Source of the DNA: a virus
Taxonomy: Duplodnaviria; Caudoviricetes
IMG/VR virus record: IMGVR_UViG_3300033143_003628
Location: 1-55,307 of that record
Reading direction: 5' to 3' (one strand)
Length of the DNA stretch: 55,307 nt
Shown here: piece after piece, positions 7,170 through 55,300 of the stretch
Numbering within the stretch: the stretch's first letter is position 1
Layout: each line of letters opens with the position of its first letter
Notes under the pieces: model-generated
Told to the model about the DNA's origin: nothing
Database searches by the model: none
What the model saw: only the letters and a program-made list of their open reading frames with translations
Made by a program: the position numbers and the translations under genes

Positions 7170-8342
7170 ATGACAGACCTTTTTGAAAAGATGAAAGCTC
7201 TTAAAGCTAAGAAAGATCAAGCAGCGCGAGAGACCCCCCAGGACGAGCCAGAACAGGCAAGTTCTGCGGGCAGTACTGTGCAGTGTCCATGTGGCAGTTC
7301 GCTCGCTGGTGAGTGTGCTGAGTGCGACGCAGATAATATAGAAGACCCGGAGATAGTTGCGAGGCTCAAAAACGTAGGTGTGAACCCGCCCGCGCCTACG
7401 ACTGCCGAGCTGCCGGATCTGCCGGAAAAGAAAAAGGCGGTTAAGCAGAACGCCGCCGGTACTTGTCCCTTTTGTGACAAAGAATTCAAAAATTTGAATA
7501 GGCACAAATGTAAAAAGAAACCTGCCGAGCTGAACGAAGGTACAAATGTGCGGACGGAAATCGTTGACAAAGATATTGATAGGCAACTGGACGACGAAGT
7601 TATAGTGGACGAAAGTAAATTCTATATTGAAGGTGTTGAAATTGTTTGTCCTGATTGCGGGATAGCTCAACTCACGATGCCATCGGCAGATGTAGAAGAA
7701 GGAAAATATGCTTTCATGTGTCTTAACGCCGCACGTAGAAAAGAATTTGTTGTTGATAATTCTAAAACATCTGGACCCAGTGTGACACCTGCCGAGCCTA
7801 AAGAAACTTTTGATCCCTGTCCTAATTGCGGCAGTGCTGCCACAACTATTGTTAACAAGGGCATGGACTCAGAACATTATCTTTGTGTCGATTGTAATCA
7901 GAAATGGAATCACGATAACAATGTGGCAAAGGTTAGTGTCACAAACGTAACAAATGTCACTGTGGCAGAGGTCAAAGAAGTGACAGAACAAGAACCAAAT
8001 GTTACCGAACACAAATTAGAAGTGACCTTCGACAGAACACCTGGCTTCGATTTGTACATCGATATTCTAATCGAACGAGCGCAGGACATGCCACAAAAGA
8101 TCTATTCGTTTGATGACTTCATTAAAAAGTTTTGTGACGAAGTAAATGAAGGAACGAAAGAAGTCCACTGGAAAGTGGTCGAGTACGCTAAGGGCGCAGG
8201 GTATTTGATTGCGGTATTGGAAGACTGGTTTAAGCAGAACGAACTGGATGGGATTTTAATTGCGAGTTCAAGTTCGTTAGAATTTTCTGTAGTCCAATCC
8301 GTACTAAAAAGAAATGCACGAAACGTGCTTCAGGGGGTATGA
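7170..8342 (+). CDS. multi Zn-finger protein with low-complexity linkers
   Basis: Several CxxC pairs; Val-Thr repeat segment. Confidence 0.75.
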   Translation: MTDLFEKMKALKAKKDQAARETPQDEPEQASSAGSTVQCPCGSSLAGECAECDADNIEDPEIVARLKNVGVNPPAPTTAELPDLPEKKKAVKQNAAGTCPFCDKEFKNLNRHKCKKKPAELNEGTNVRTEIVDKDIDRQLDDEVIVDESKFYIEGVEIVCPDCGIAQLTMPSADVEEGKYAFMCLNAARRKEFVVDNSKTSGPSVTPAEPKETFDPCPNCGSAATTIVNKGMDSEHYLCVDCNQKWNHDNNVAKVSVTNVTNVTVAEVKEVTEQEPNVTEHKLEVTFDRTPGFDLYIDILIERAQDMPQKIYSFDDFIKKFCDEVNEGTKEVHWKVVEYAKGAGYLIAVLEDWFKQNELDGILIASSSSLEFSVVQSVLKRNARNVLQGV

Positions 8343-8557
8343 TAATGTCTTCAATAGATCATTTATTTGAAGAGCAGGAAAAGAAACTCGCTATGGCATT
8401 AGATGTTATTGAATACACACGTATGATTGTATCTGATGCAGGATTTCAGCACATCAAAGAGATAGTGAAAGAGCTTAAAATTCGCACGGTAGAACGAGAC
8501 GCCCTACAAGCCAGGTTGAACGAACTTCACGAACTAATTCGTTGGGAACAAAAATGA
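8339..8557 (+). CDS. coiled-coil hypothetical protein
   Basis: Shares a module with the next ORF. Confidence 0.6.
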   Translation: MIMSSIDHLFEEQEKKLAMALDVIEYTRMIVSDAGFQHIKEIVKELKIRTVERDALQARLNELHELIRWEQK

Positions 8558-8958
8558 AACCAAGAATATATAATGAAAATTTTTGTGACATCGCATGCTC
8601 TTATTTAAGAGTTGAAACTACTTATCAAGGAGTTTGCGATAGTGTTTGTATTTTATATGATCATGCTATTTTAGAAAAAGATTATGCAGAAAGTAAAATG
8701 CTGAGATGTAAAACTTGTAAATTAGAAGAGATTATTAGTTATACACAAGATGAAATAGAGGCGGCAGGATTTAATTACTTAAAAGAGATAGTGAAAGAAT
8801 TAGAAATCCGCACGGCAGAACGGGACGAACTTCAAGTCCGGTCGAAGGAGATTGAAAAACTAACAAATCTGTTATCCAAAGATAGTGATTATTTTGATAT
8901 TAGTGAGACAATAAAAACAATTCGAGAAATAATTTGCGCCAATGAAAATGACAACTGA
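8554..8958 (+). CDS. hypothetical protein (Cys-rich N-terminus plus shared coiled-coil module)
   Basis: ATGA overlap start within tracked ORF 8542..8958. Confidence 0.6.
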   Translation: MKPRIYNENFCDIACSYLRVETTYQGVCDSVCILYDHAILEKDYAESKMLRCKTCKLEEIISYTQDEIEAAGFNYLKEIVKELEIRTAERDELQVRSKEIEKLTNLLSKDSDYFDISETIKTIREIICANENDN

Positions 8959-12569: not shown

Positions 12570-12703
12570 AAAGCGGAGTCGGTTAAGCGCCGATTCATTC
12601 ACACTAATGGAACAACGTACCTGGAGCAATAATGGAACAACGTACCTGGAGCAATAATGTATCAGGTATTTTCGCAGACCGACTCTGCTTTTTAGAATTC
12701 ATT
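12558..12703 (+). ncRNA. long RNA hairpin (~27-bp stem) enclosing a 25-bp tandem duplication
   Basis: Arms 12558-12589 and 12673-12703 are complementary; the three substitutions in the 27-bp core all form G-U pairs on the + strand. Confidence 0.55.
12605..12659. repeat. tandem repeat, 2.2 x TAATGGAACAACGTACCTGGAGCAA
   Basis: Two exact 25-bp copies plus a partial third. Confidence 0.95.
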
Positions 12704-12721: not shown

Positions 12722-12934
12722 ATGCGACTATTAAAAAATAAAACAAGGATACAATTGGACTTTACAAAAGAAGCCATAAAAGATTTGGACTTTGTTCAGA
12801 AAAAACTAGGTGCGGCTTCGAGGGCAGAAGTCTTTCGCAGATCCCTTAAGCTTATGAAATACGCCCTCGATGAAAATCTTAATTTGCTTTTTGTAAATGA
12901 CGACGGTACAGCAAAAACGTTTATGATTTTTTAG
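12722..12934 (+). CDS. ribbon-helix-helix (CopG-like) DNA-binding protein
   Basis: RIQLDF strand, helix, then SRAEVFRRSL. Confidence 0.75.
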   Translation: MRLLKNKTRIQLDFTKEAIKDLDFVQKKLGAASRAEVFRRSLKLMKYALDENLNLLFVNDDGTAKTFMIF

Positions 12935-12947
12935 GAAAGGAACAACC

Positions 12948-13490
12948 GTGCCATTTTATTGCGACAAATGTAAAAGTGATCCGCTACTCGCGGCACCTGG
13001 TATATGTCCCTTCGCTATTGAACATCAAACATCAAACATAGCATCTGAACAATTAATAGATTGGATTGATAAAGGAATAAGATTTTCCGACTGTATAAAA
13101 AGGTTCGGTTTAAAAATACCTGACTGGCAGAAAGGTATACTAAAGTTACCTAAGAAAAAAAGACCCGCGCCTAAAGCACTTAAGAAAGTTCTGCCTAAAA
13201 AATTTAACGTGACAAAAAATCATTCCGCGAAGTTTGACGGCGAACCTGTGACACATATGCAACTAAGAATACTTACGGCCATCGAAGAATTTTGGTTGCA
13301 AAATAAATATGGTCCGGTGCAGCGCGAGCTTAGTAGGTTGGGCGGTATGTCCAGGGGTTCGGCACTGTTCGAGCAACTTAGAGTACTGCGCGAGCGCGGT
13401 TTAATAATTCAGACCATGGTCGAAGGCCGAAGCATACAGCGAACTTTGCGGACAAGGCGCACAAATGTGACGGTGGAAATCACATGGTAA
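12948..13490 (+). CDS. protein with C-terminal LexA-type winged-helix DNA-binding domain
   Basis: T..QLRIL..I.......YGP..REL....G..S......L..L.ERGLI; no peptidase domain. Confidence 0.7.
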   Translation: MPFYCDKCKSDPLLAAPGICPFAIEHQTSNIASEQLIDWIDKGIRFSDCIKRFGLKIPDWQKGILKLPKKKRPAPKALKKVLPKKFNVTKNHSAKFDGEPVTHMQLRILTAIEEFWLQNKYGPVQRELSRLGGMSRGSALFEQLRVLRERGLIIQTMVEGRSIQRTLRTRRTNVTVEITW

Positions 13491-13657
13491 AGGTCAAAAC
13501 TTACGACCCATCTAAAGTTAGTATGATTGTCGCAGGACAAAAAGTGACAGGTATTTATATTGAACCAAAACAAATACCTGCGAAAAGCTTTCGCGTGTGG
13601 TTTGGACCCTATGAATATTTAATGTTCTACCCTGCATGGTTTGGTGAACTAAAGTGA
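13484..13657 (+). CDS. 57-aa protein whose N-terminus resembles the tail tube N-terminus (not in ORF track)
   Basis: MVKVKTYDPSKVSMIVAGQKVTG...; GGTGG RBS; overlaps the upstream stop. Confidence 0.7.
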   Translation: MVKVKTYDPSKVSMIVAGQKVTGIYIEPKQIPAKSFRVWFGPYEYLMFYPAWFGELK

Positions 13658-13690
13658 CAACACTAAAGTGACAACTCTAAAGTGACAACT
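13649..13690. repeat. 3 x 14-bp tandem repeat CTAAAGTGACAAC(A/T)
   Basis: Read directly from the sequence. Confidence 0.95.
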
Positions 13691-15391
13691 TTATTAGAAC
13701 AAATGATGGCGCGGACGGGCCGAACGAAAGTTCCGCAGTATGCGAAAAAATCTTTCGGGTATCGCGCCGTCGTTCAGCGTTCTGCCGAATACCTGCGGAT
13801 TGCAGCTCTGCCCACAAGGGAATGGGACACCGAAGCTTATACAAATGAATTGATACAAGTGTTAACTTCCGAGCTGAAGACGCCACAAGGAAATTGGACT
13901 TTAAACAAAATCCAGGCGGCGAGTATAAACGACATCATTTTATATGGCGGCGCTTTGCTGCCGGTAGGTGTAGGACAAGGCAAAGCTTTAATTTCACTTT
14001 TGACCCCCGTTGTTTTAAATGCCGCTCGGCCTGTTCTGTTCGTGCCCGCTTCACTGCGTGAGCAAACAAATGAAATAGTTCTGCCGCAAATGCGCAAGCT
14101 CTGGCAACTACATCCCGGCCTTAAGGTGATAGGTTACAGTGAACTATCATTAGAAAAAAATGCAGAAATGCTTTGGCAGCTGCGACCGGATTTAATTGTG
14201 TTAGACGAATGTGACGAAATTAAAAACAAAAGCGCAGGCCGAACGAAAAGACTAACTAGATATTTTCGAGATTATCCAAATACAAAATGTGTCGCCATGA
14301 GCGGGACCATTAGTAACAGATCATTAAAGGACTACGCGCACATTGCACACTGGTGTTTGAAACATAATTCGCCGCTGCCTTTATCTTGGCAAGAGCTGAC
14401 AATTTGGTCGGATGCTATTGACGAAAAGGTGCCGGACGAAAGACGAGTTGCGCCGGGAGTATTGGAGAACTTTTGTATTGAAGGAGAAAATGTTCGGCAA
14501 GGGTTCAGGCGCAGGCTAACTAGTACACCAGGAGTAATAGCTTCGGCGGCGGACGATCTTGGTACGGCGTTAAGAATTTTTAAATATGATCTAGATGTAC
14601 CGGGAATCGTTTGGGATCAAATAGAAAACATGCGTTCGACTTGGGAGACACCTAACGGTGAAACTTTTTCGGAAGCGATAGATCTGTGGCGACACATTCG
14701 TGAACTTTCATTGGGTTTCTTTTATCGATGGGACCCTTCGGCCCCGAGTGATTGGCTGGACGCGAGGCGAGAATGGAAGTCTTATGTTAGAGAAACTTTA
14801 AAAACAAATCGTAGGAATTTAGATACCGAACTACAAGTGTGGAACGAATGTGCTCGTACAGCTACCGTATTGAAAGCTTGGCAGGACTGGCGAGATATTA
14901 AAGACACATTTAAACCTAATCCCGTTGCCGAATGGATTTCGGATTTCGCTTTAAAGGTGGCACGAATTTGGTTATTAGAAAGGCGCTGGAAATCTAGAGG
15001 CGCGGGAATTTGTTGGGTCGAACATGTGGAGTTTGGCAGAAAACTTGCGGAAGTTTCTGGACTTCCTTATTTTGGTGCGGGTGATAGTAGTATTTTAACT
15101 ACGACCGAGCCTGCTATTATTGCAAGTGTTTCGGCACATGGCAAAGGCAAAAACTTGCAGCGATATAATAGAAGTTTAATTACGATGCCTTCGGCAAGTG
15201 GTAAAACCTGGGAACAGGTACTTGGTCGCCTCCACAGACAAGGGCAAAAAAGTGACGCGGTAATCTACGATGTATTTTTGCACGTGGACGAGCTGCAAAG
15301 TGCACTGGTTCAGGCGCGTGCGGACGCAATTTATTTAGAAGACACATTAGGTAATCGGCAAAAGCTAAATTATGCCGATATAGTTTTATGA
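13682..15391 (+). CDS. superfamily 2 (SNF2-like) helicase
   Basis: VGQGKA (Walker A-like), LIVLDECD, AMSGT, QVLGRLHRQGQ. Confidence 0.85.
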   Translation: MTTLLEQMMARTGRTKVPQYAKKSFGYRAVVQRSAEYLRIAALPTREWDTEAYTNELIQVLTSELKTPQGNWTLNKIQAASINDIILYGGALLPVGVGQGKALISLLTPVVLNAARPVLFVPASLREQTNEIVLPQMRKLWQLHPGLKVIGYSELSLEKNAEMLWQLRPDLIVLDECDEIKNKSAGRTKRLTRYFRDYPNTKCVAMSGTISNRSLKDYAHIAHWCLKHNSPLPLSWQELTIWSDAIDEKVPDERRVAPGVLENFCIEGENVRQGFRRRLTSTPGVIASAADDLGTALRIFKYDLDVPGIVWDQIENMRSTWETPNGETFSEAIDLWRHIRELSLGFFYRWDPSAPSDWLDARREWKSYVRETLKTNRRNLDTELQVWNECARTATVLKAWQDWRDIKDTFKPNPVAEWISDFALKVARIWLLERRWKSRGAGICWVEHVEFGRKLAEVSGLPYFGAGDSSILTTTEPAIIASVSAHGKGKNLQRYNRSLITMPSASGKTWEQVLGRLHRQGQKSDAVIYDVFLHVDELQSALVQARADAIYLEDTLGNRQKLNYADIVL

Positions 15392-15395
15392 AAGG

Positions 15396-15620
15396 GTGAA
15401 AGTGATGCGAGTATTCGAAGAGACTATTCCAGAAAAAAGAAAAAGTGATTTGCGTGTTTTGGTAGAAGTGAATACAAAAGAGGGAAAACTTTTATTAGAG
15501 ATATGTGAAAAAGCAATCAAAGCACACCCAAAGAAAAGTTCTTATAAAACTATGTTGAAAAAATTAGAAGAGATGCCTTGCTTTTTTATGTCAGATTTTG
15601 GGCGAAATAAAATTAAATGA
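15396..15620 (+). CDS. hypothetical protein
   Basis: Packed ORF. Confidence 0.55.
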   Translation: MKVMRVFEETIPEKRKSDLRVLVEVNTKEGKLLLEICEKAIKAHPKKSSYKTMLKKLEEMPCFFMSDFGRNKIK

Positions 15621-15901
15621 CACAAGTGTGCCCCAGTTGTTCAATGGATTATGACGATTTCCGCACCGGGTTTTGTTACGCAGATATTTATTCAATGTTC
15701 TGGTCTTACGATGACGACCCGAAGACATGGCGAAACAAAAGGCGCGGAAGTGTCTTAGGTAAGTGGCGCGAGCTAAAATTAAAAATGTGGGCAGAACACT
15801 TAGAGACCTGCAGGCAAACTGCTCCGGGGTGTATTCGCGCCGAACAGAAACCTATACCGATAACTTTAAATTTTTATGAATACGAAGGGGAAGGAAAGTG
15901 A
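15617..15901 (+). CDS. hypothetical protein with CxxC...HxxxC
   Basis: Coupled ORF. Confidence 0.6.
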   Translation: MTQVCPSCSMDYDDFRTGFCYADIYSMFWSYDDDPKTWRNKRRGSVLGKWRELKLKMWAEHLETCRQTAPGCIRAEQKPIPITLNFYEYEGEGK

Positions 15902-38224: not shown

Positions 38225-39880
38225 TTACCCTGGCGAAGCCGCCGCCTTTGCCGGAATTATTCGCTTCATCGCATTGCGCCGATCCCTAGCATTTACTTTG
38301 TCAGCTTCCTTGCCTATCTCAACCGCGAGCTTCTTTTCGTCCATGTCAGGAGTCGCCTTCACCTCTATCTTAGTATTATTAACAGGAGCGTACACAGCAG
38401 GTCCGCCAGCGCCCGCAGGAGCAGTCGCCTTTTGCCCAGTACCCGCTTCTGCTCGCATCGCCCCTAGAGCCCGTGAAGCGGCTGCTGCTTTAGCTACATT
38501 TTTACGCACTCTCTTATCCTGCTCAGATGTTCTTAGATCTTCTCCGCCGTGAATGTCGCGAGTCTTCCCTGTAAAAAGATTTTTAACAATTCCAAATGTG
38601 TCTTTTAATGCTTTAGCAATAGGTCCAATAAAATAACTTATGAACCCTTCAATAGCATCGTCCCATAATTCATCAAAGAAAATTAAAAGCTCTTTACCAA
38701 AGGTGTGAAAAGCACCTATTAAATCCGCGACTGCATCAACAGGATCTTCACTTAACTTTTGAAACCATTTAATAATATCTTTTATGTATTCACTTATTGG
38801 CAGTCCAGTCAACTCGTCCAGAGTTTCAAACAGTTTACCAAATACAGAATCCCCGCCTTCGACCCAGGTAATCAAGTCTTCAACTACTAAAATAATCAGC
38901 GCTGCTAAAATCAAAAACAAACCAAGCGGTGAAGCTAAAAATAAAAGCACTCTGCCTAATGCCGCAGCCGCTTTGCTCCAAGTTAAAAACATCAAAATAA
39001 CTAAACCGATTTTTGCAAACAAAGGTAAATTAGCTAAAAACTTTCCGGCACCCACAATCAATTTAAAAAGTATTTCTAAAAATCGACCCATACTATCGAT
39101 GGCACCTTCGTTACTTTTGAGCCAATTACCTAACGAATCAATTCCCTTTTCTAATAGTGGCAGAAATCGCAAACCGAACCTGGTTGCAATGTCACGAATA
39201 GTACCACTTAATCGTTTCGACGCATTTGCCCAACCTTCAGAAGTCTTCGCTGCGTCACCATGCGCTTTCTCTGTTTGATCTAAAATGAAATTGTAACGTA
39301 GTGCAGTCTTCTCTGCGATAGACATAGATTTAATATTTTTATTAATACCTTGACTAAGTGCAAAAGCTTTTAAAGTTGCTTCTGTTAAAATAACTCCGAA
39401 CCGTTTCATCGGTTCAGCTTCACCAGAAATAGCCGAACGTAAGGCAATCAATACATCAGGTTCAGCTGTGTCAAAAAAGCTTCCTAAATCCACCGCAAGT
39501 TCTGCAAACCGTGTACCCATCTCCGATGCTGCTAACGCATTTTTACCCATCAAAGGATTTAGCACGGCACCTAATGTCGCAGCCATCTCACGCATTGCAA
39601 ATTCAGATCGACCCGCCTCGTCCGAAAAAGATTTTGCCCAATCTAAAACCGTTTGTTGATTTTCTTCAAAAGCCGCATCGAGAACATTTAAAGTTTCATT
39701 TGCCGAACTTGCAAAATTAACAATCTTACGCACGCCCGCAAACGCAGCCCAGAGACCGAACACCGAGCCCGCGAATTCAACAACTTTTCTTTTAGCTTTA
39801 GTTAAAAGTGAATCGGCTTTTTTAAAACTGGAACTATCAGTTTTAACTCCGAGCAGGGCAACTAGTTCTCGAACGACCAT
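38225..39880 (-). CDS. tape measure protein
   Basis: Ala-rich helical protein with a hydrophobic centre; DL.SF, SGE.EP.KRFG; synteny. Confidence 0.85.
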   Translation of the reverse strand: MVVRELVALLGVKTDSSSFKKADSLLTKAKRKVVEFAGSVFGLWAAFAGVRKIVNFASSANETLNVLDAAFEENQQTVLDWAKSFSDEAGRSEFAMREMAATLGAVLNPLMGKNALAASEMGTRFAELAVDLGSFFDTAEPDVLIALRSAISGEAEPMKRFGVILTEATLKAFALSQGINKNIKSMSIAEKTALRYNFILDQTEKAHGDAAKTSEGWANASKRLSGTIRDIATRFGLRFLPLLEKGIDSLGNWLKSNEGAIDSMGRFLEILFKLIVGAGKFLANLPLFAKIGLVILMFLTWSKAAAALGRVLLFLASPLGLFLILAALIILVVEDLITWVEGGDSVFGKLFETLDELTGLPISEYIKDIIKWFQKLSEDPVDAVADLIGAFHTFGKELLIFFDELWDDAIEGFISYFIGPIAKALKDTFGIVKNLFTGKTRDIHGGEDLRTSEQDKRVRKNVAKAAAASRALGAMRAEAGTGQKATAPAGAGGPAVYAPVNNTKIEVKATPDMDEKKLAVEIGKEADKVNARDRRNAMKRIIPAKAAASPG

Positions 39881-39892
39881 TAAGACTCCAAT

Positions 39893-40138
39893 TTATTGCG
39901 GTGGCGTCTTGGCCGATTTATGTTCTAACTCCTCTTTAACATCTAAAGCGTCATGGGCATCGAACACATCGACCAGATCATAATATGTTTCAATCTCTTT
40001 TAGAGTCGCCACATTATTGACAACTAAACGCCAAATCAACCAACTCAAGTGCTCTGGGATTTCAACACTGACTTGTTCTGTTGCCGGGGAATTAGACTGC
40101 TTCCGCCTTCTATCAAGGCGCTCAAGGACTTTCCCCAC
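39893..40138 (-). CDS. tail assembly chaperone, frameshift extension (gpGT-like)
   Basis: In the -1 frame relative to the upstream chaperone, entered at GGGAAAG. Confidence 0.75.
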   Translation of the reverse strand: MGKVLERLDRRRKQSNSPATEQVSVEIPEHLSWLIWRLVVNNVATLKEIETYYDLVDVFDAHDALDVKEELEHKSAKTPPQ

Positions 40139-40539
40139 TGCACACTAATCCCAAAAGCCACCCACTTGTACATCTTATCTAGTTCGCCCATGAAGTGCAC
40201 ATCGAATACACCGGCACCGTCGAGCTGTCCTACATCTTTCACAAGTGTGACCTTTTTAAAAGTGTTCATAACATTATTAAACACTTCTTTTTCTAAGCTC
40301 TGCAGAAATCCACCTATCACATCAGTAAAAAAATCTTTGGGAATTTCAAGATCTTCCAAATTAAAATTAGATACATCTACATTATCACTACCCAGTATTG
40401 CATCTAATCCTTTACCAATGGATGGCCCGGACATCTTCAAAACATCAATCAGGAGATCGTTACTTAACATCGGCGGCAACATATACATAGTGTATTCATG
40501 CTCGCCAATGATCTTCGTAACTCCATCTTGTTGTGACAT
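40045..40539 (-). CDS. tail assembly chaperone (gpG-like)
   Basis: Lies between the tube and tape measure genes. Confidence 0.8.
   Translation of the reverse strand: MSQQDGVTKIIGEHEYTMYMLPPMLSNDLLIDVLKMSGPSIGKGLDAILGSDNVDVSNFNLEDLEIPKDFFTDVIGGFLQSLEKEVFNNVMNTFKKVTLVKDVGQLDGAGVFDVHFMGELDKMYKWVAFGISVQWGKSLSALIEGGSSLIPRQQNKSVLKSQST
40129..40135 (-). other. -1 ribosomal frameshift site G-GGA-AAG
   Basis: Heptamer correctly phased in the chaperone ORF (TGG GGA AAG); identical to the lambda G/T slippery sequence. Confidence 0.8.
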
Positions 40540-40968
40540 TTAGTTTCCTCCTACATTTGAAATCATTACATCTGTTTCAAATACCCACTCTCTTGTGCTC
40601 GGTTCTTGTGCGAACTCGGACGGCGCTGGTTTCACTATCCAAGCGTTTTCTGCAGAGTGCAAAGATGTACCCGACGCATCTTTTACAAGCATCGGTGCAA
40701 CTCCATCACCCGCAGGACTGTTCACATCGGCGTTATGAAACCCCGAAAGTATTGTGTTGGAAAGACTCGATTGCATCAAAGTCACTGTTACACGTGCACT
40801 TCTATTATTGGATTTCGCTCGGCAAGCATCACCAGCCGCACCGACACTTAATGAAAAAGAATCTTCATTGTATTCGACGTTCACAAATGTGCCGGGAGCA
40901 AATCCAGTAATAAGATGTCCACTGAAAACAGTAGCAACCTGTTTGGGATCATATGTGCCTAAAGTCAT
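40540..40968 (-). CDS. tail tube protein (DUF3277-like)
   Basis: TYDPK.V.....G..ITGF, VGA.G, L.Q.S.SN, REW.F. Confidence 0.88.
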   Translation of the reverse strand: MTLGTYDPKQVATVFSGHLITGFAPGTFVNVEYNEDSFSLSVGAAGDACRAKSNNRSARVTVTLMQSSLSNTILSGFHNADVNSPAGDGVAPMLVKDASGTSLHSAENAWIVKPAPSEFAQEPSTREWVFETDVMISNVGGN

Positions 40969-40980
40969 TCTGTTTCCTCC

Positions 40981-42306
40981 TTATACGCTCACATAACCTT
41001 GAATTCCGGTTTTGTGTACTGCTCCCGCGAGCTGCGCGGTAAATTCAATCCCTGGAAAATACCTTGCCGCTCTGTTTACTACAGATTGATCTGCTACCTT
41101 CGGAACCGTAACAGTCGGTGCAGGATCTGCACGATAGAGATCATTTGTGACACCTTCTTGCAGAACTCCGCGAATATCGTTTTCGAGAACTCCCGCGCCG
41201 GTATCGGTGTAAGGAATTTTCTTCGCATTTATCAGCGAAGCGTAAATCCTTTCCTGAATCCTGGTCTGTGTCCAATCGATTCCGCGTGTCACATCGATGA
41301 ACTCACCTGACGAAACGACACCATATTGAAACATCGGCAAACCGCGCTTATTGAGATATACGTTACAAGCCTTATCTTCCAATGTGCTCAATTCAGTTGT
41401 AGTCATGTTAGTAGTCGAAACACCCGATGCACTTTTGAACATCCAGGTAATCGAGCCAGGATCTTGTGGAAGTTGCCCACCGGCCCAGCCTGCGGCCGGA
41501 TACTCGGTAAGAGCTTTAGGACTATACACTAAGAAAGTACGGTCGTAGCCGAGCGTCTGCAGTGCCGACGCGAGATCGTCCGAAACTCCACTATCATAAA
41601 TTTCGTCATCCGCGCTGGACGTGCCCATCATTTTGACAAGAGTTTCGATGTAAACCGCCGCAGCTTTCACCGGCAGAGCGCCGATGTTTGTAAGGTGCAA
41701 CGAATACCAATCGTCATTCAGCAATTGAACCGCCGTAATATCTGCAACAATTCCTGGTGCCCCGTCCGGCGTGGTGTTCTCTTGTACCAAAATATCGCGC
41801 TCGGCAGTTTCGAGTCTGAACTGGTCCGCAATCGCAACAGATTCAATATCGATGTCCGTTGTGTTATCCGTAACAACTACATTTTGTGACAGAGCATCAA
41901 TTGCAATTTTCAATCCGGCAGTAACTTCTGCAGCTGTTGCAGTTGCATCCGTAGTGAATGTAGCATCGAGACCGTTGACTGTTACGGTGTAGTCCCAAAG
42001 ATTTTTAAGAGTAGCAACTACAGGTGTGACAACGATCTTTTGTTTTTCCGTATTCGCTTCCCGACCTACCACTACCCTGACAGGTTTTGGATTTTGTGAA
42101 AGCAGAGCGCCAACACACCTAACCGCAGGATCGGTAGACGAAAAACCATCTACAATCATATCTGTCACAGAAGTGTACTCTCGATACTTATCCACATAGT
42201 TTGTGTGATACGCCATAACAAGCGGAATTCCAAACCCGACTTGAGTGGGCGCAGCAGCGGATTTTGTAATCGTTATGACTACAATGCTGTCTAAATCAGT
42301 TGACAT
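40981..42306 (-). CDS. tail sheath protein (DUF3383-like)
   Basis: V.ITI....A....GFG.PL, PGSITW.FK, GEFID..RG.DW, KIPYTD.G, AGA.H. Confidence 0.9.
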   Translation of the reverse strand: MSTDLDSIVVITITKSAAAPTQVGFGIPLVMAYHTNYVDKYREYTSVTDMIVDGFSSTDPAVRCVGALLSQNPKPVRVVVGREANTEKQKIVVTPVVATLKNLWDYTVTVNGLDATFTTDATATAAEVTAGLKIAIDALSQNVVVTDNTTDIDIESVAIADQFRLETAERDILVQENTTPDGAPGIVADITAVQLLNDDWYSLHLTNIGALPVKAAAVYIETLVKMMGTSSADDEIYDSGVSDDLASALQTLGYDRTFLVYSPKALTEYPAAGWAGGQLPQDPGSITWMFKSASGVSTTNMTTTELSTLEDKACNVYLNKRGLPMFQYGVVSSGEFIDVTRGIDWTQTRIQERIYASLINAKKIPYTDTGAGVLENDIRGVLQEGVTNDLYRADPAPTVTVPKVADQSVVNRAARYFPGIEFTAQLAGAVHKTGIQGYVSV

Positions 42307-55129: not shown

Positions 55130-55158
55130 AAAATAGTCCTTTGTCACTAATGTGTCAA
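55130..55158 (-). promoter_or_regulatory. sigma70-type promoter for the packaging/structural arm
   Basis: Minus strand ACTTGACACA; TTGACA, 17 nt, TATTTT; RBS AGGAAGGAG downstream. Confidence 0.65.
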
Positions 55159-55300
55159 GTTATACGGGTGTCACAGGTAGAGGTGTGACGATGAAAGGTT
55201 AATAATAATAGGTGTTTATATACAAGTGTCACACTGTCACACCTTCAATATTAAAAAGTACTAGAGTATAAGTAAAAACAGGGTGTCACAGTGTCACACC
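55142..55300. repeat. cluster of TGTCAC(A) iteron-like repeats around AT-rich DNA; candidate origin or packaging site
   Basis: Exact TGTCACA at 55169, 55227, 55235, 55284, 55292; paired 18-mers GTGTCACA(C/G)TGTCACACC at 55226 and 55283. Confidence 0.7.

What the first reader, a model, noticed from the sequence alone, without database searches (positions are those of the whole stretch)
13484..13657. Unannotated 57-aa protein that mimics the tail tube N-terminus
Seen: MVKVKTYDPSKVSMIVAGQKVTGI aligns ungapped with the phage's own tube protein MTLGTYDPKQVATVFSGHLITGF (40540..40968), sharing TYDP..V.....G..(V/I)TG. The rest of the peptide is unrelated and rich in aromatic residues. The gene lies 27 kb away from the tube gene, on the opposite strand, among regulators and the helicase, and is translationally coupled at both ends. 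Known: some bacterial defences (e.g. the sirtuin DSR2) are triggered by tail tube proteins, and some phage proteins block tail assembly of competitors. Inference: a tube-fragment decoy that occupies a host tube sensor before late genes are expressed, or a dominant-negative cap on tube polymerisation of rival phages.
Basis: partly seen in the sequence, partly recalled or inferred. Interest (0 to 1): 0.8.

Follow-up and report, generated by a model that had tools for sequence, protein, structure and literature searches.

The report
Orphan early gene with tail-tube start
A 57-residue phage gene found nowhere else really does begin with the conserved first two dozen residues of a tail tube protein, but it looks like a one-off chimeric gene, and nothing yet shows that it acts as a decoy.

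Summary
ORF 13484..13657 (+) encodes the stated 57 aa. Residues 4-24 match the N-terminus of the DUF3277/KPP10_Orf10 (PF11681, phrog_280) tail tube family, in register with the start codon. Support: hhalign 91%; tube HMM E 0.005 among 1,211 six-frame ORFs of the window; 0 of 20,000 shuffles reach its score; its only PDB hits are the phiTE tail tube. The match ends sharply at residue 24, with no continuation in any frame. It is closer to another phage's tube (13/21 identical) than to its own (8/21), and third codon positions are saturated, so it is not a recent self-copy. Codon usage is gene-like. The start overlaps the upstream regulator's stop, and the stop feeds a GTGA stop/start relay, built from three 14-nt repeats, into a helicase gene with no Shine-Dalgarno sequence. 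No homologue exists in any database searched. In relatives the slot upstream of the helicase holds unrelated small genes. Best reading: a lineage-specific chimeric gene built on a captured tube 5' end and translated within the replication operon. The decoy or cap function is untested and unsupported. Moderate interest.

The parts
13484..13657 (+). 57-aa ORF (stop included). It is the orphan gene under study.
   Evidence: Codon-usage log-odds is 0.252 per codon, and 1 of 201 spurious ORFs of similar length reaches that. The only database entry is the protein itself.
13484..13555 (+). Codons 1-24, the tube-like N-terminal segment (TYDPxxV...G....TG). Residues 4-24 align to tube profile columns 3-23.
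13556..13654 (+). Codons 25-57, an unrelated C-terminal part rich in aromatic residues (10 of 33).
   Evidence: No family and no match in the window or in relatives. No tube continuation in any frame. Aromatic count.
13484..13490 (+). ATGGTAA: the start codon of the ORF overlaps the TAA stop of the upstream gene. A GGTGG motif lies 8 to 12 nt before the ATG.
12948..13490 (+). Upstream gene of 180 aa with a LexA-type winged-helix DNA-binding domain.
   Evidence: PF01726 at E 2.8e-5, 24.3 bits against a cut-off of 23.7. phrog_3502 and phrog_362 'transcriptional repressor'.
13648..13689 (+). Three tandem copies of the 14-nt unit ACTAAAGTGACAAC. They span the ORF's TGA stop (13655-13657) and the helicase's GTG start (13682).
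   Evidence: (three exact 13-mer copies, found only here).
13654..13685 (+). Two 5-codon mini-ORFs (13654-13671 and 13668-13685). Each starts at a GTG that overlaps the preceding TGA as GTGA, linking the ORF's stop to the helicase start.
   Evidence: Read directly. Function is inferred.
13682..15391 (+). Helicase gene of 569 aa (SNF2/DEAD-like). It has no Shine-Dalgarno-like sequence before its GTG start.
   Evidence: phrog_62 at E 1.3e-12. DEAD at E 2e-4, below the Pfam cut-off. Start context. The N-terminus aligns with those of relatives.
40540..40968 (-). The phage's own tail tube gene (142 aa, P0001), the reference for the similarity.
   Evidence: AF2 model with mean pLDDT 88.7.
38225..42306 (-). 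Tail module context: sheath 40981-42306, tube 40540-40968, assembly chaperone 40045-40539, tape measure 38225-39880.

Best explanation
The ORF is a lineage-specific chimeric orphan gene. Its start codon and first 24 codons descend from the 5' end of a DUF3277-family tail tube gene. The source was a different tube allele or an old copy, not a recent duplicate of the phage's own gene. These codons are fused at a sharp junction to 33 unrelated, aromatic-rich codons.

The gene sits in a variable slot of the early replication operon and is most likely translated there. Its ATG overlaps the stop of the upstream LexA-type regulator gene. Its TGA opens a relay of GTGA stop/start overlaps, built from three 14-nt repeats, that ends at the GTG start of the helicase gene, which has no Shine-Dalgarno sequence. 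So at the least it serves as the upstream cistron that delivers ribosomes to the helicase gene.

Shown: the homology and its limits, the gene-like codon usage, the junction anatomy and the orphan status. Inferred: translation, the coupling, and any activity of the product. A tube-related activity (N-terminal arm mimicry) is possible but is not needed to explain what is seen.
For: Homology.
- hhalign 91.3%, E 9.5e-7, residues 4-24 on columns 3-23.
- Tube HMM 12.6 bits, E 0.0054, in the window's 1,211 six-frame ORFs. The next best there is 6.3 bits, and the best of 11,837 ORFs from relatives is 6.9 bits.
- 0 of 20,000 shuffles reach the score.
- phrog_280 E 0.0073 for residues 1-29.
- The only two PDB hits at E<=10 are the phiTE tail tube.
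- Among 6,381 ORFs of six relatives estimated >=93% complete, the peptide's best hit is a tube N-terminus, E 0.0017, with 13/21 residues identical.

Sharp junction. No tube signal follows residue 24 in any frame. The family's conserved GFADGTF motif is absent.

Not a recent self-copy.
- 8/21 identical to the phage's own tube, against up to 12/21 and 13/21 to others.
- Third codon positions match at 6/19 with its own tube and 6/21 with the G005 tube.

Gene-like.
- Codon score 0.252 per codon, against neighbours at 0.14-0.30. 1 of 201 spurious ORFs reaches it. Both halves score positive.
- ATG is the only start in the frame, with GGTGG upstream.
- 18 of 50 early-gene junctions overlap.

Coupling.
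- There is no Shine-Dalgarno sequence before the helicase GTG, and the GTGA overlaps are read.
- In relatives the helicase start overlaps or abuts the upstream ORF's stop: L086 ATGA and L091 by 1 nt, G002 by 17 nt, MW202816 with a 3-nt gap.
- Those upstream ORFs are unrelated proteins.
Against: There is no direct evidence of translation. No sequencing run could be listed, and the host is unknown. The Shine-Dalgarno-like motif (GGTGG) is weak compared with the AAGGAGG of the late genes.

Orphan status means no test of selection is possible.

The ORF holds a 15-nt-arm inverted repeat and a small hairpin. It also holds one of eight genomic AAGTGACA copies, with three more just downstream. So the stretch may also, or instead, be regulatory DNA.

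The three-copy repeat could be an assembly artefact; no reads were available to check it.

The codon statistics rest on 57 codons. The AF2 model of the peptide has low confidence (mean pLDDT 64).
Confidence: 0.5

Rival explanations
1. Tube N-arm mimic. The early-made peptide uses its tube-like N-terminal arm and first beta-hairpin to bind the surface that this arm normally covers, which is the inter-ring beta-hairpin of a tube subunit. This would either mask tube monomers from tube sensors, occupy such a sensor directly, or poison tube polymerisation in a co-infecting relative.
For: - The conserved segment is the right one. In the phiTE tube the 18-residue N-terminal extension wraps over the beta-hairpin of a subunit in the adjacent ring (PMC11972413, section 7 passages). 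The peptide aligns to phiTE residues 10-37.
- In the AF2 model of the phage's own tube, residues 1-10 are not strands, and strands lie at 11-15 and 18-20.
- Tube sensors exist. Avs16 contacts the conserved tube beta-hairpin (PMC13581612, passages). DSR2 binds monomeric tube, and DSAD1 competes for an overlapping site (PMC11087589, abstract and passages).
- The segment is no more diverged than real tube proteins are from each other.
- The gene lies in the early operon.
Against: - It is a singleton. 0 of 6 relatives estimated >=93% complete carry a second, N-terminal-only tube copy, and no short homologue exists in any database searched. So there is no sign of a selected, recurrent strategy.
- Only 21 residues match. 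The family's most conserved N-terminal motif, GFADGTF, is missing.
- It is closer to foreign tubes than to its own. That fits a captured fragment at least as well as a tuned mimic of its own tube.
- The known sensors contact the hairpin or the whole monomer, not the N-arm.
Confidence: 0.2
2. Non-functional recombination scar. A tube 5' fragment landed here recently by illegitimate recombination. The frame is open by luck, and the stretch is either untranslated or makes a product of no consequence.
For: - Orphan status.
- The slot upstream of the helicase is variable in relatives.
- The homology has a sharp boundary.
- Repeats, hairpins and AAGTGACA copies in and after the ORF suggest a DNA-level role.
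Against: - Codon usage matches the phage's genes in both halves, and only 1 of 201 spurious ORFs of similar length scores as high.
- The start and stop are embedded in the operon's coupling pattern.
- The other two forward frames are closed many times.
- The genome is 94% coding, so idle DNA is rare in it.
Confidence: 0.2
3. Chance resemblance. The match is a short beta-hairpin-like motif that happens to look like a tube N-terminus.
For: - Only 21 aligned residues.
- Pairwise BLASTP E is 0.013 against the proteome, a level expected about once in an all-against-all comparison of 85 proteins.
- Pfam PF11681 gives no hit.
- Codons 20-22 coincide with a DNA motif that is over-represented across the genome.
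Against: - Profile tests agree: 91% hhalign, E 0.005 in the six-frame window and 0 of 20,000 shuffles.
- The tube family is the top hit in PHROGs, in the PDB and in relatives' ORF sets, each searched independently.
- The match is in register with the only start codon.
Confidence: 0.05

Closest known systems
DUF3277 / KPP10_Orf10 tail tube family (PF11681, phrog_280). Examples: phiTE tail tube (PDB 9cb9, 9cuy), Pakpunavirus P7-1 tube-B gp78 and tube-C gp79 (9zd7), Sf14 gp40 (9c39).
   Same: Residues 4-24 carry the family's N-terminal signature (K/x-T-Y-D-P-x-x-V ... G ... T/S-G), in register with the start codon. Identity to true members is up to 13/21.
   Different: Only about 15% of the domain is present, with no GFADGTF motif, no beta-sandwich and no helix. 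It is 57 aa long against about 140-180 aa. It lies in the replication operon on the other strand, not after the sheath gene. Pfam gives no hit.
DSAD1, the phage inhibitor of the tube sensor DSR2
   Same: It is a phage protein that competes with the tail tube protein for a host sensor (PMC11087589, abstract and passages).
   Different: The text I read does not describe DSAD1 as a tube homologue. No sequence comparison with the peptide was made here. DSR2 and DSAD1 belong to Bacillus siphophages with a different tube family.
Tab, the tail assembly blocker of Pseudomonas prophage JBD26
   Same: It is a small phage protein, outside the tail operon, that blocks tail assembly of other phages (PMC10884400, abstract and Discussion).
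   Different: Tab's activity maps to the tape measure protein, not the tube. It is made constitutively from a prophage and is paired with an anti-Tab protein. The text I read mentions no structural-protein mimicry. None of ten large ORFs scanned against Pfam matched an integrase family; the rest of the window was not scanned.
Eukaryotic microProteins: small truncated paralogues that titrate a larger protein through a retained interaction domain. This comparison is recalled; no call supports it.
   Same: A short protein that keeps one contact element of a larger oligomerising protein.
   Different: Neither binding nor any dominant-negative effect is shown here, and the peptide is not part of a conserved family.
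Translationally coupled upstream cistrons in phage operons (stop/start overlaps such as ATGA). This is general knowledge, recalled.
   Same: The start overlaps the upstream stop. GTGA overlaps lead into a downstream gene that has no Shine-Dalgarno sequence. Relatives couple the same helicase to whatever ORF lies upstream.
   Different: The link runs through two 5-codon mini-ORFs created by a 14-nt triplication. I did not search the literature for a chain of this kind.

Membership tests
PF11681 / phrog_280 tail tube proteins | Significant match to the family profile over the domain | tested here: not met
   Pfam gives no PF11681 hit at E<=10. PHROGs and the custom profiles match only columns 3-23 of 141-143. 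No further match appears in any frame.
PF11681 / phrog_280 tail tube proteins | N-terminal arm and first strands with the TYDPxxV...G...G signature | tested here: met
   hhalign 91.3%. 13.7 bits against a maximum of 8.3 in 20,000 shuffles. 12-13 of 21 residues identical to true members.
PF11681 / phrog_280 tail tube proteins | Eight-stranded beta-sandwich flanked by an alpha-helix (phiTE description, PMC11972413, section 7) | tested here: not met
   The peptide has 57 residues. Its AF2 model shows five short strands and no helix, at mean pLDDT 64. The phage's own tube model shows the full set of strands plus helix 70-83. Foldseek against the PDB finds no match at E<=0.001.
PF11681 / phrog_280 tail tube proteins | Gene placed in the tail module next to sheath, chaperone and tape measure | tested here: not met
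   It lies between a LexA-type regulator gene and a helicase gene, 27 kb from the tail module and on the other strand.
Anti-defence competitor or decoy for a tube sensor (DSAD1-like in function) | Binds the sensor at or near the tube-binding site and prevents activation | not testable with these tools
Dominant-negative truncated paralogue (microProtein-like) | Small protein that keeps a protein-protein contact element of a larger oligomerising protein | tested here: inconclusive
   The retained segment aligns to phiTE tube residues 10-37. Residues 1-18 of that tube form the inter-ring arm (PMC11972413, section 7). The mapping of residue numbers is my inference.
Dominant-negative truncated paralogue (microProtein-like) | Forms a non-productive complex with the full-length protein | not testable with these tools
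   This needs pull-down or polymerisation assays.
Tab-like tail assembly blocker | Sequence relation to Tab, prophage expression, and a paired anti-Tab gene | not tested
   No Tab sequence was on hand. None of ten large ORFs scanned against Pfam matched an integrase family; the rest of the window was not scanned.

The most novel reading that the evidence does not exclude
The phage makes, early in infection, a 57-residue 'N-arm mimic' derived from a tail tube gene. The peptide would clamp the inter-ring beta-hairpin of newly made tube monomers, or of a rival phage's tube. That hairpin is the surface that Avs16-type receptors read. The effect would be to hide the tube from host pattern recognition until assembly, or to cap a competitor's tubes. 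If so, it would be the first anti-defence or interference protein built from a fragment of the very structural protein that is sensed.
Probability: 0.15. Interest if true: 0.8.

Novelty: new variant of a known kind. Interest (0 to 1): 0.4.

Why it matters
If the peptide is made and binds tube protein or a tube sensor, it would show that a phage can turn a fragment of its own sensed structural protein into a regulator or shield. That would suggest a simple search rule for counter-defence genes: short early ORFs that carry the termini of late proteins. If it is only a chimeric orphan, it is still a clean, datable example of how a phage orphan gene is born, by capture of a gene's start and first codons followed by fusion to new sequence. 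It also shows an unusual stop/start relay feeding an essential replication gene. On present evidence the second, more modest reading is the more likely one.

Tried and rejected
- Complex prediction of the tube (alignment A1) with the peptide. The tool returned 'no answer' (score 0.00 in both runs, controls not folded). It is reported here only and is not used as evidence either way.
- Foldseek of the peptide model against the PDB. No match at E<=0.001. The weaker rows are unrelated, and the model has low confidence.
- ESM Atlas. It holds only the sequence itself plus unnamed clusters scoring at most 0.88. No lead came of it.
- Pfam on the peptide. The only hit was Mitofissin at E 0.15, which I rejected as chance.
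- tblastn of the peptide against 50,697 phage records. There were 48 records, all with E of 2 or worse. Rows covering residues 1-29 or 4-38 fall on N-termini of tail or structural genes of Otagovirus and of phiTE/CR3-like phages. No single row is significant.
- Frameshift origin of the C-terminal part. No tube signal appears in any frame. Rejected.
- C-terminal 33 residues against the window, the relatives and PHROGs. Nothing found.
- A second early/late fragment pair elsewhere in the proteome. None was convincing.
- RNA structure of 13530-13700. The z-score was -0.93, which is not notable.
- Promoter and terminator scans. Only consensus-level matches.
- blastn of 12900-15400 against phages. 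No match.
- Single-protein helicase scan of IMG/VR. No pattern match. It succeeded once I used an alignment.
- Sequencing runs. None was listed and no RNA holder was listed, so neither expression nor repeat copy number could be checked.
- No earlier findings were seen.
- Supplementary files of PMC11972413 (the tube figures) and of PMC13581612 could not be opened. They may hold the exact residue ranges of the N-terminal arm and of the Avs16 contact.
Full report
**Context.** The window is a whole IMG/VR virus record of 55,307 bp, which CheckV estimates as 100% complete. GC content is 43.7% and about 94% of the sequence is coding. Early and replication genes run on the + strand up to about 24.3 kb, and late genes run on the - strand beyond that. 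The tail module reads sheath 40981-42306, tube 40540-40968, assembly chaperone 40045-40539 and tape measure 38225-39880. The 142-aa protein P0001 is a tail tube protein. It scores PF11681 at 39 bits against a cut-off of 25 and phrog_280 at E 3e-39. Its PDB relatives are tube chains of P7-1 (9zd7), Sf14 (9c39), phiTE (9cb9, 9cuy) and 9mt4 (phage names from the listing and the passages).

**The observation.** ORF 13484..13657 (+) encodes the 57 residues quoted, and ATG 13484 is the first start codon after the preceding in-frame stop. Upstream lies a 180-aa gene with a LexA-type winged-helix domain. Downstream lie a 569-aa SNF2/DEAD-like helicase gene, then DNA polymerase and Holliday-junction resolvase genes. 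The C-terminal 33 residues hold 10 aromatic residues, against 8.4% in the proteome.

**Is the similarity real?**
- Pairwise BLASTP finds 8/18 identities. E is 1e-4 for the single pair and 0.013 against the 85-protein proteome. In an all-against-all comparison that level is expected about once by chance.
- hhalign against an alignment of 36 tube proteins, 39-65% identical to P0001, gives 91.3% probability and E 9.5e-7, with residues 4-24 on columns 3-23.
- PHROGs places phrog_280, the family of the phage's own tube, first among 38,880 families. E is 0.034 for the whole peptide and 0.0073 for residues 1-29.
- An HMM of the 36 tubes scores this frame 12.6 bits (E 0.0054) among all 1,211 stop-to-stop ORFs of the window. 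The next best is 6.3 bits. The best of 11,837 ORFs from 79 relatives' helicase loci is 6.9 bits.
- 0 of 20,000 composition-preserving shuffles reach the peptide's 13.7 bits; the largest is 8.3.
- In the whole PDB the only two sequences matched at E<=10 are the phiTE tail tube.
- Among 6,381 ORFs of six relatives estimated >=93% complete, the peptide's best hit is the N-terminus of a tube protein, at E 0.0017.
- Against this, Pfam's own PF11681 model gives no hit, and only 21 residues are involved.
I put chance at about 5%.

**Extent and origin of the homology.** The match stops at residue 24. The family's strongly conserved GFADGTF motif, which follows directly, is absent. No frame downstream carries any tube signal, so a simple frameshift does not explain the break. 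The peptide shares 8/21 residues with its own tube. It shares up to 12/21 with database tubes and with the Otagovirus REC1 tube paralogue, and 13/21 with the tube of relative G005. Real family members share a median of 10/21 with P0001 over the same columns. At DNA level the identities fall mostly at first and second codon positions. Third positions match at only 6/19 with its own tube and 6/21 with G005. So the segment is not a recent duplicate of the resident tube gene, and it is not a long-decayed remnant. Either it was captured fairly recently from an unsampled tube allele, or it has been kept by selection. The data cannot separate these two.

**Is it a gene?**
- Codon-usage log-odds, trained on 59 long ORFs of the window, is 0.252 per codon. 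Neighbouring genes score 0.14-0.30 and 25 small genes average 0.18. Only 1 of 201 spurious same-size ORFs reaches it.
- The tube-like part (0.349) and the unrelated part (0.185) both score positive, while the other two forward frames score about -0.73.
- The ATG overlaps the upstream TAA (ATGGTAA), and GGTGG lies 8 to 12 nt upstream. 18 of 50 early-gene junctions overlap.
- No read data could be obtained, so translation remains an inference.

**The 3' junction.** Three tandem 14-nt copies (13648-13689) hold both the ORF's TGA (13655-13657) and the helicase's GTG (13682). The sequence shows that each copy provides a GTG overlapping the previous TGA as GTGA. This yields two 5-codon mini-ORFs (13654-13671 and 13668-13685) that link the ORF's stop to the helicase start. 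With a single copy, the ORF and the helicase would overlap directly as GTGA. The helicase start has no Shine-Dalgarno-like sequence, and its N-terminus aligns with those of relatives. In relatives the helicase start also overlaps or abuts the stop of whatever ORF lies upstream. Examples are L086 (ATGA), L091 (1 nt), G002 (17 nt) and MW202816 (3-nt gap). Translational coupling of the helicase to an upstream cistron therefore seems conserved, while the cistron itself is not. This is inference from anatomy.

**Conservation.** The peptide is an orphan.
- It finds only itself among 5.8 G protein clusters at 31-100 aa and among 1.84 G representatives read in full by HMMER.
- It has no longer relative.
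- Six 8-residue back-translated patterns found nothing in IMG/VR or in 241 M metagenome records.
- The closest helicases are 63% and 59% identical (L086, L091). The 79 helicase loci hold no relative of the peptide at E<=10. Their upstream slots carry zinc-ribbon-like, coiled-coil or other small ORFs.
- Six relatives estimated >=93% complete each have exactly one tube gene and no second, N-terminal-only copy. Four of these gave the same result.

**What the retained segment does in a tube.** In phiTE the tube subunit is an eight-stranded beta-sandwich with a flanking helix. [quoted passage not shown] The peptide aligns to phiTE residues 10-37. That range covers the end of that arm plus the first strands; the residue mapping is my inference. 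The AF2 model of P0001 (mean pLDDT 88.7) has no strand in residues 1-10 and strands at 11-15 and 18-20. The peptide alone is predicted, with low confidence, as five short strands (mean pLDDT 64).

**Explanations.**
- Best (0.5): a chimeric orphan gene built on a captured tube 5' end. It is translated in the replication operon and serves at least as the coupling cistron for the helicase.
- Rival 1 (0.2): the product acts through its tube-like arm, masking or capping the inter-ring hairpin or occupying a sensor. This is mechanistically coherent. Avs16 contacts that hairpin (PMC13581612). DSR2 binds monomeric tube, and DSAD1 competes with it (PMC11087589). No data here support it, and the singleton status weakens it.
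- Rival 2 (0.2): an inert recombination scar.
- Rival 3 (0.05): chance.

**Comparison with what is known, and novelty.** The peptide is not a member of the tube family. Three of the four defining features tested are not met. It resembles in concept truncated dominant-negative paralogues, the DSAD1 type of competitor, and Tab-type assembly blockers (PMC10884400). Membership in any of these could not be tested. Searches for 'tail tube protein' with 'decoy' and 'phage defence', for 'DUF3277', and for 'tail tube', 'mimic', 'anti-defense', 'DSR2' and 'DSAD1' listed no title, and no abstract opening as shown, describing a tube-fragment protein. These were listings only, apart from the papers I read. 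I rate it a new variant of a known kind, with interest 0.4.

Noticed in passing
window 13648-13689: Three tandem 14-nt copies (ACTAAAGTGACAAC) form a chain of GTGA stop/start overlaps. The chain runs from the 57-aa ORF through a 5-codon ORF and a second 5-codon ORF to the helicase. Any copy number would keep the chain. It could tune helicase translation, be a protein-binding iteron, or be an assembly artefact.
   Followed up: partly
whole window; cluster at 55142-55297 and 36-41: GTGACA occurs 107 times on both strands (55 and 52), against 22.9 +/- 5.3 in shuffles. The 7-mer quasi-palindrome TGT(G/C)ACA occurs 63 times against 6.8 expected. It appears in all reading frames. 15 of the 107 copies are not inside a gene, although only 6% of the genome is non-coding. 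Six copies lie at the right end, in the early/late divergent region. Relative G003 (47 kb, GC 0.51) has 122 copies, while five other relatives have 10-27. It is probably a DNA-level signal, such as a regulator or host-linked site. Its meaning is unknown.
   Followed up: partly
window 13542-13687: Four of the genome's eight AAGTGACA copies lie within 146 nt. One is inside the ORF at codons 20-22 of the tube-like motif, and three are in the 14-nt repeats. The stop codons of the genes ending at 15901 and 16133 also sit in GTGACA.
   Followed up: partly
window 13548-13595: The ORF contains an inverted repeat with 15-nt arms and a 3-nt gap (87% complementary), followed by a 6-7 bp hairpin. Folded as RNA, the region is not unusually stable (z -0.93). 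It may be an operator for the upstream winged-helix protein.
   Followed up: partly
window 12602-12651: A 25-nt tandem repeat of two copies, 96% identical, lies upstream of gene 12722-12934.
   Followed up: no
window 8339-8557 and 8542-8958: Two adjacent, overlapping genes share a domain that is 53% identical over 45 residues (E 3e-12). This is a local duplication.
   Followed up: no
window versus loci L086-L091 and G006-G010: The window has 43.7% GC. Its closest relatives by helicase (49-63% identity) have 57-65% GC. This is a large compositional shift within one phage lineage and suggests very different hosts.
   Followed up: no
L003 (OK275491.1, Pseudomonas phage REC1) 1973-3022: Otagovirus carries two adjacent phrog_280 paralogues after the sheath gene. 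They correspond to the tube-B and tube-C baseplate rings described for Pakpunavirus P7-1 (PMC12697256). The window phage has a single copy.
   Followed up: partly
window 7170-8342: A 390-aa early protein has a weak Lar-like (restriction alleviation) zinc-ribbon match, E 2e-4, below the Pfam cut-off.
   Followed up: no
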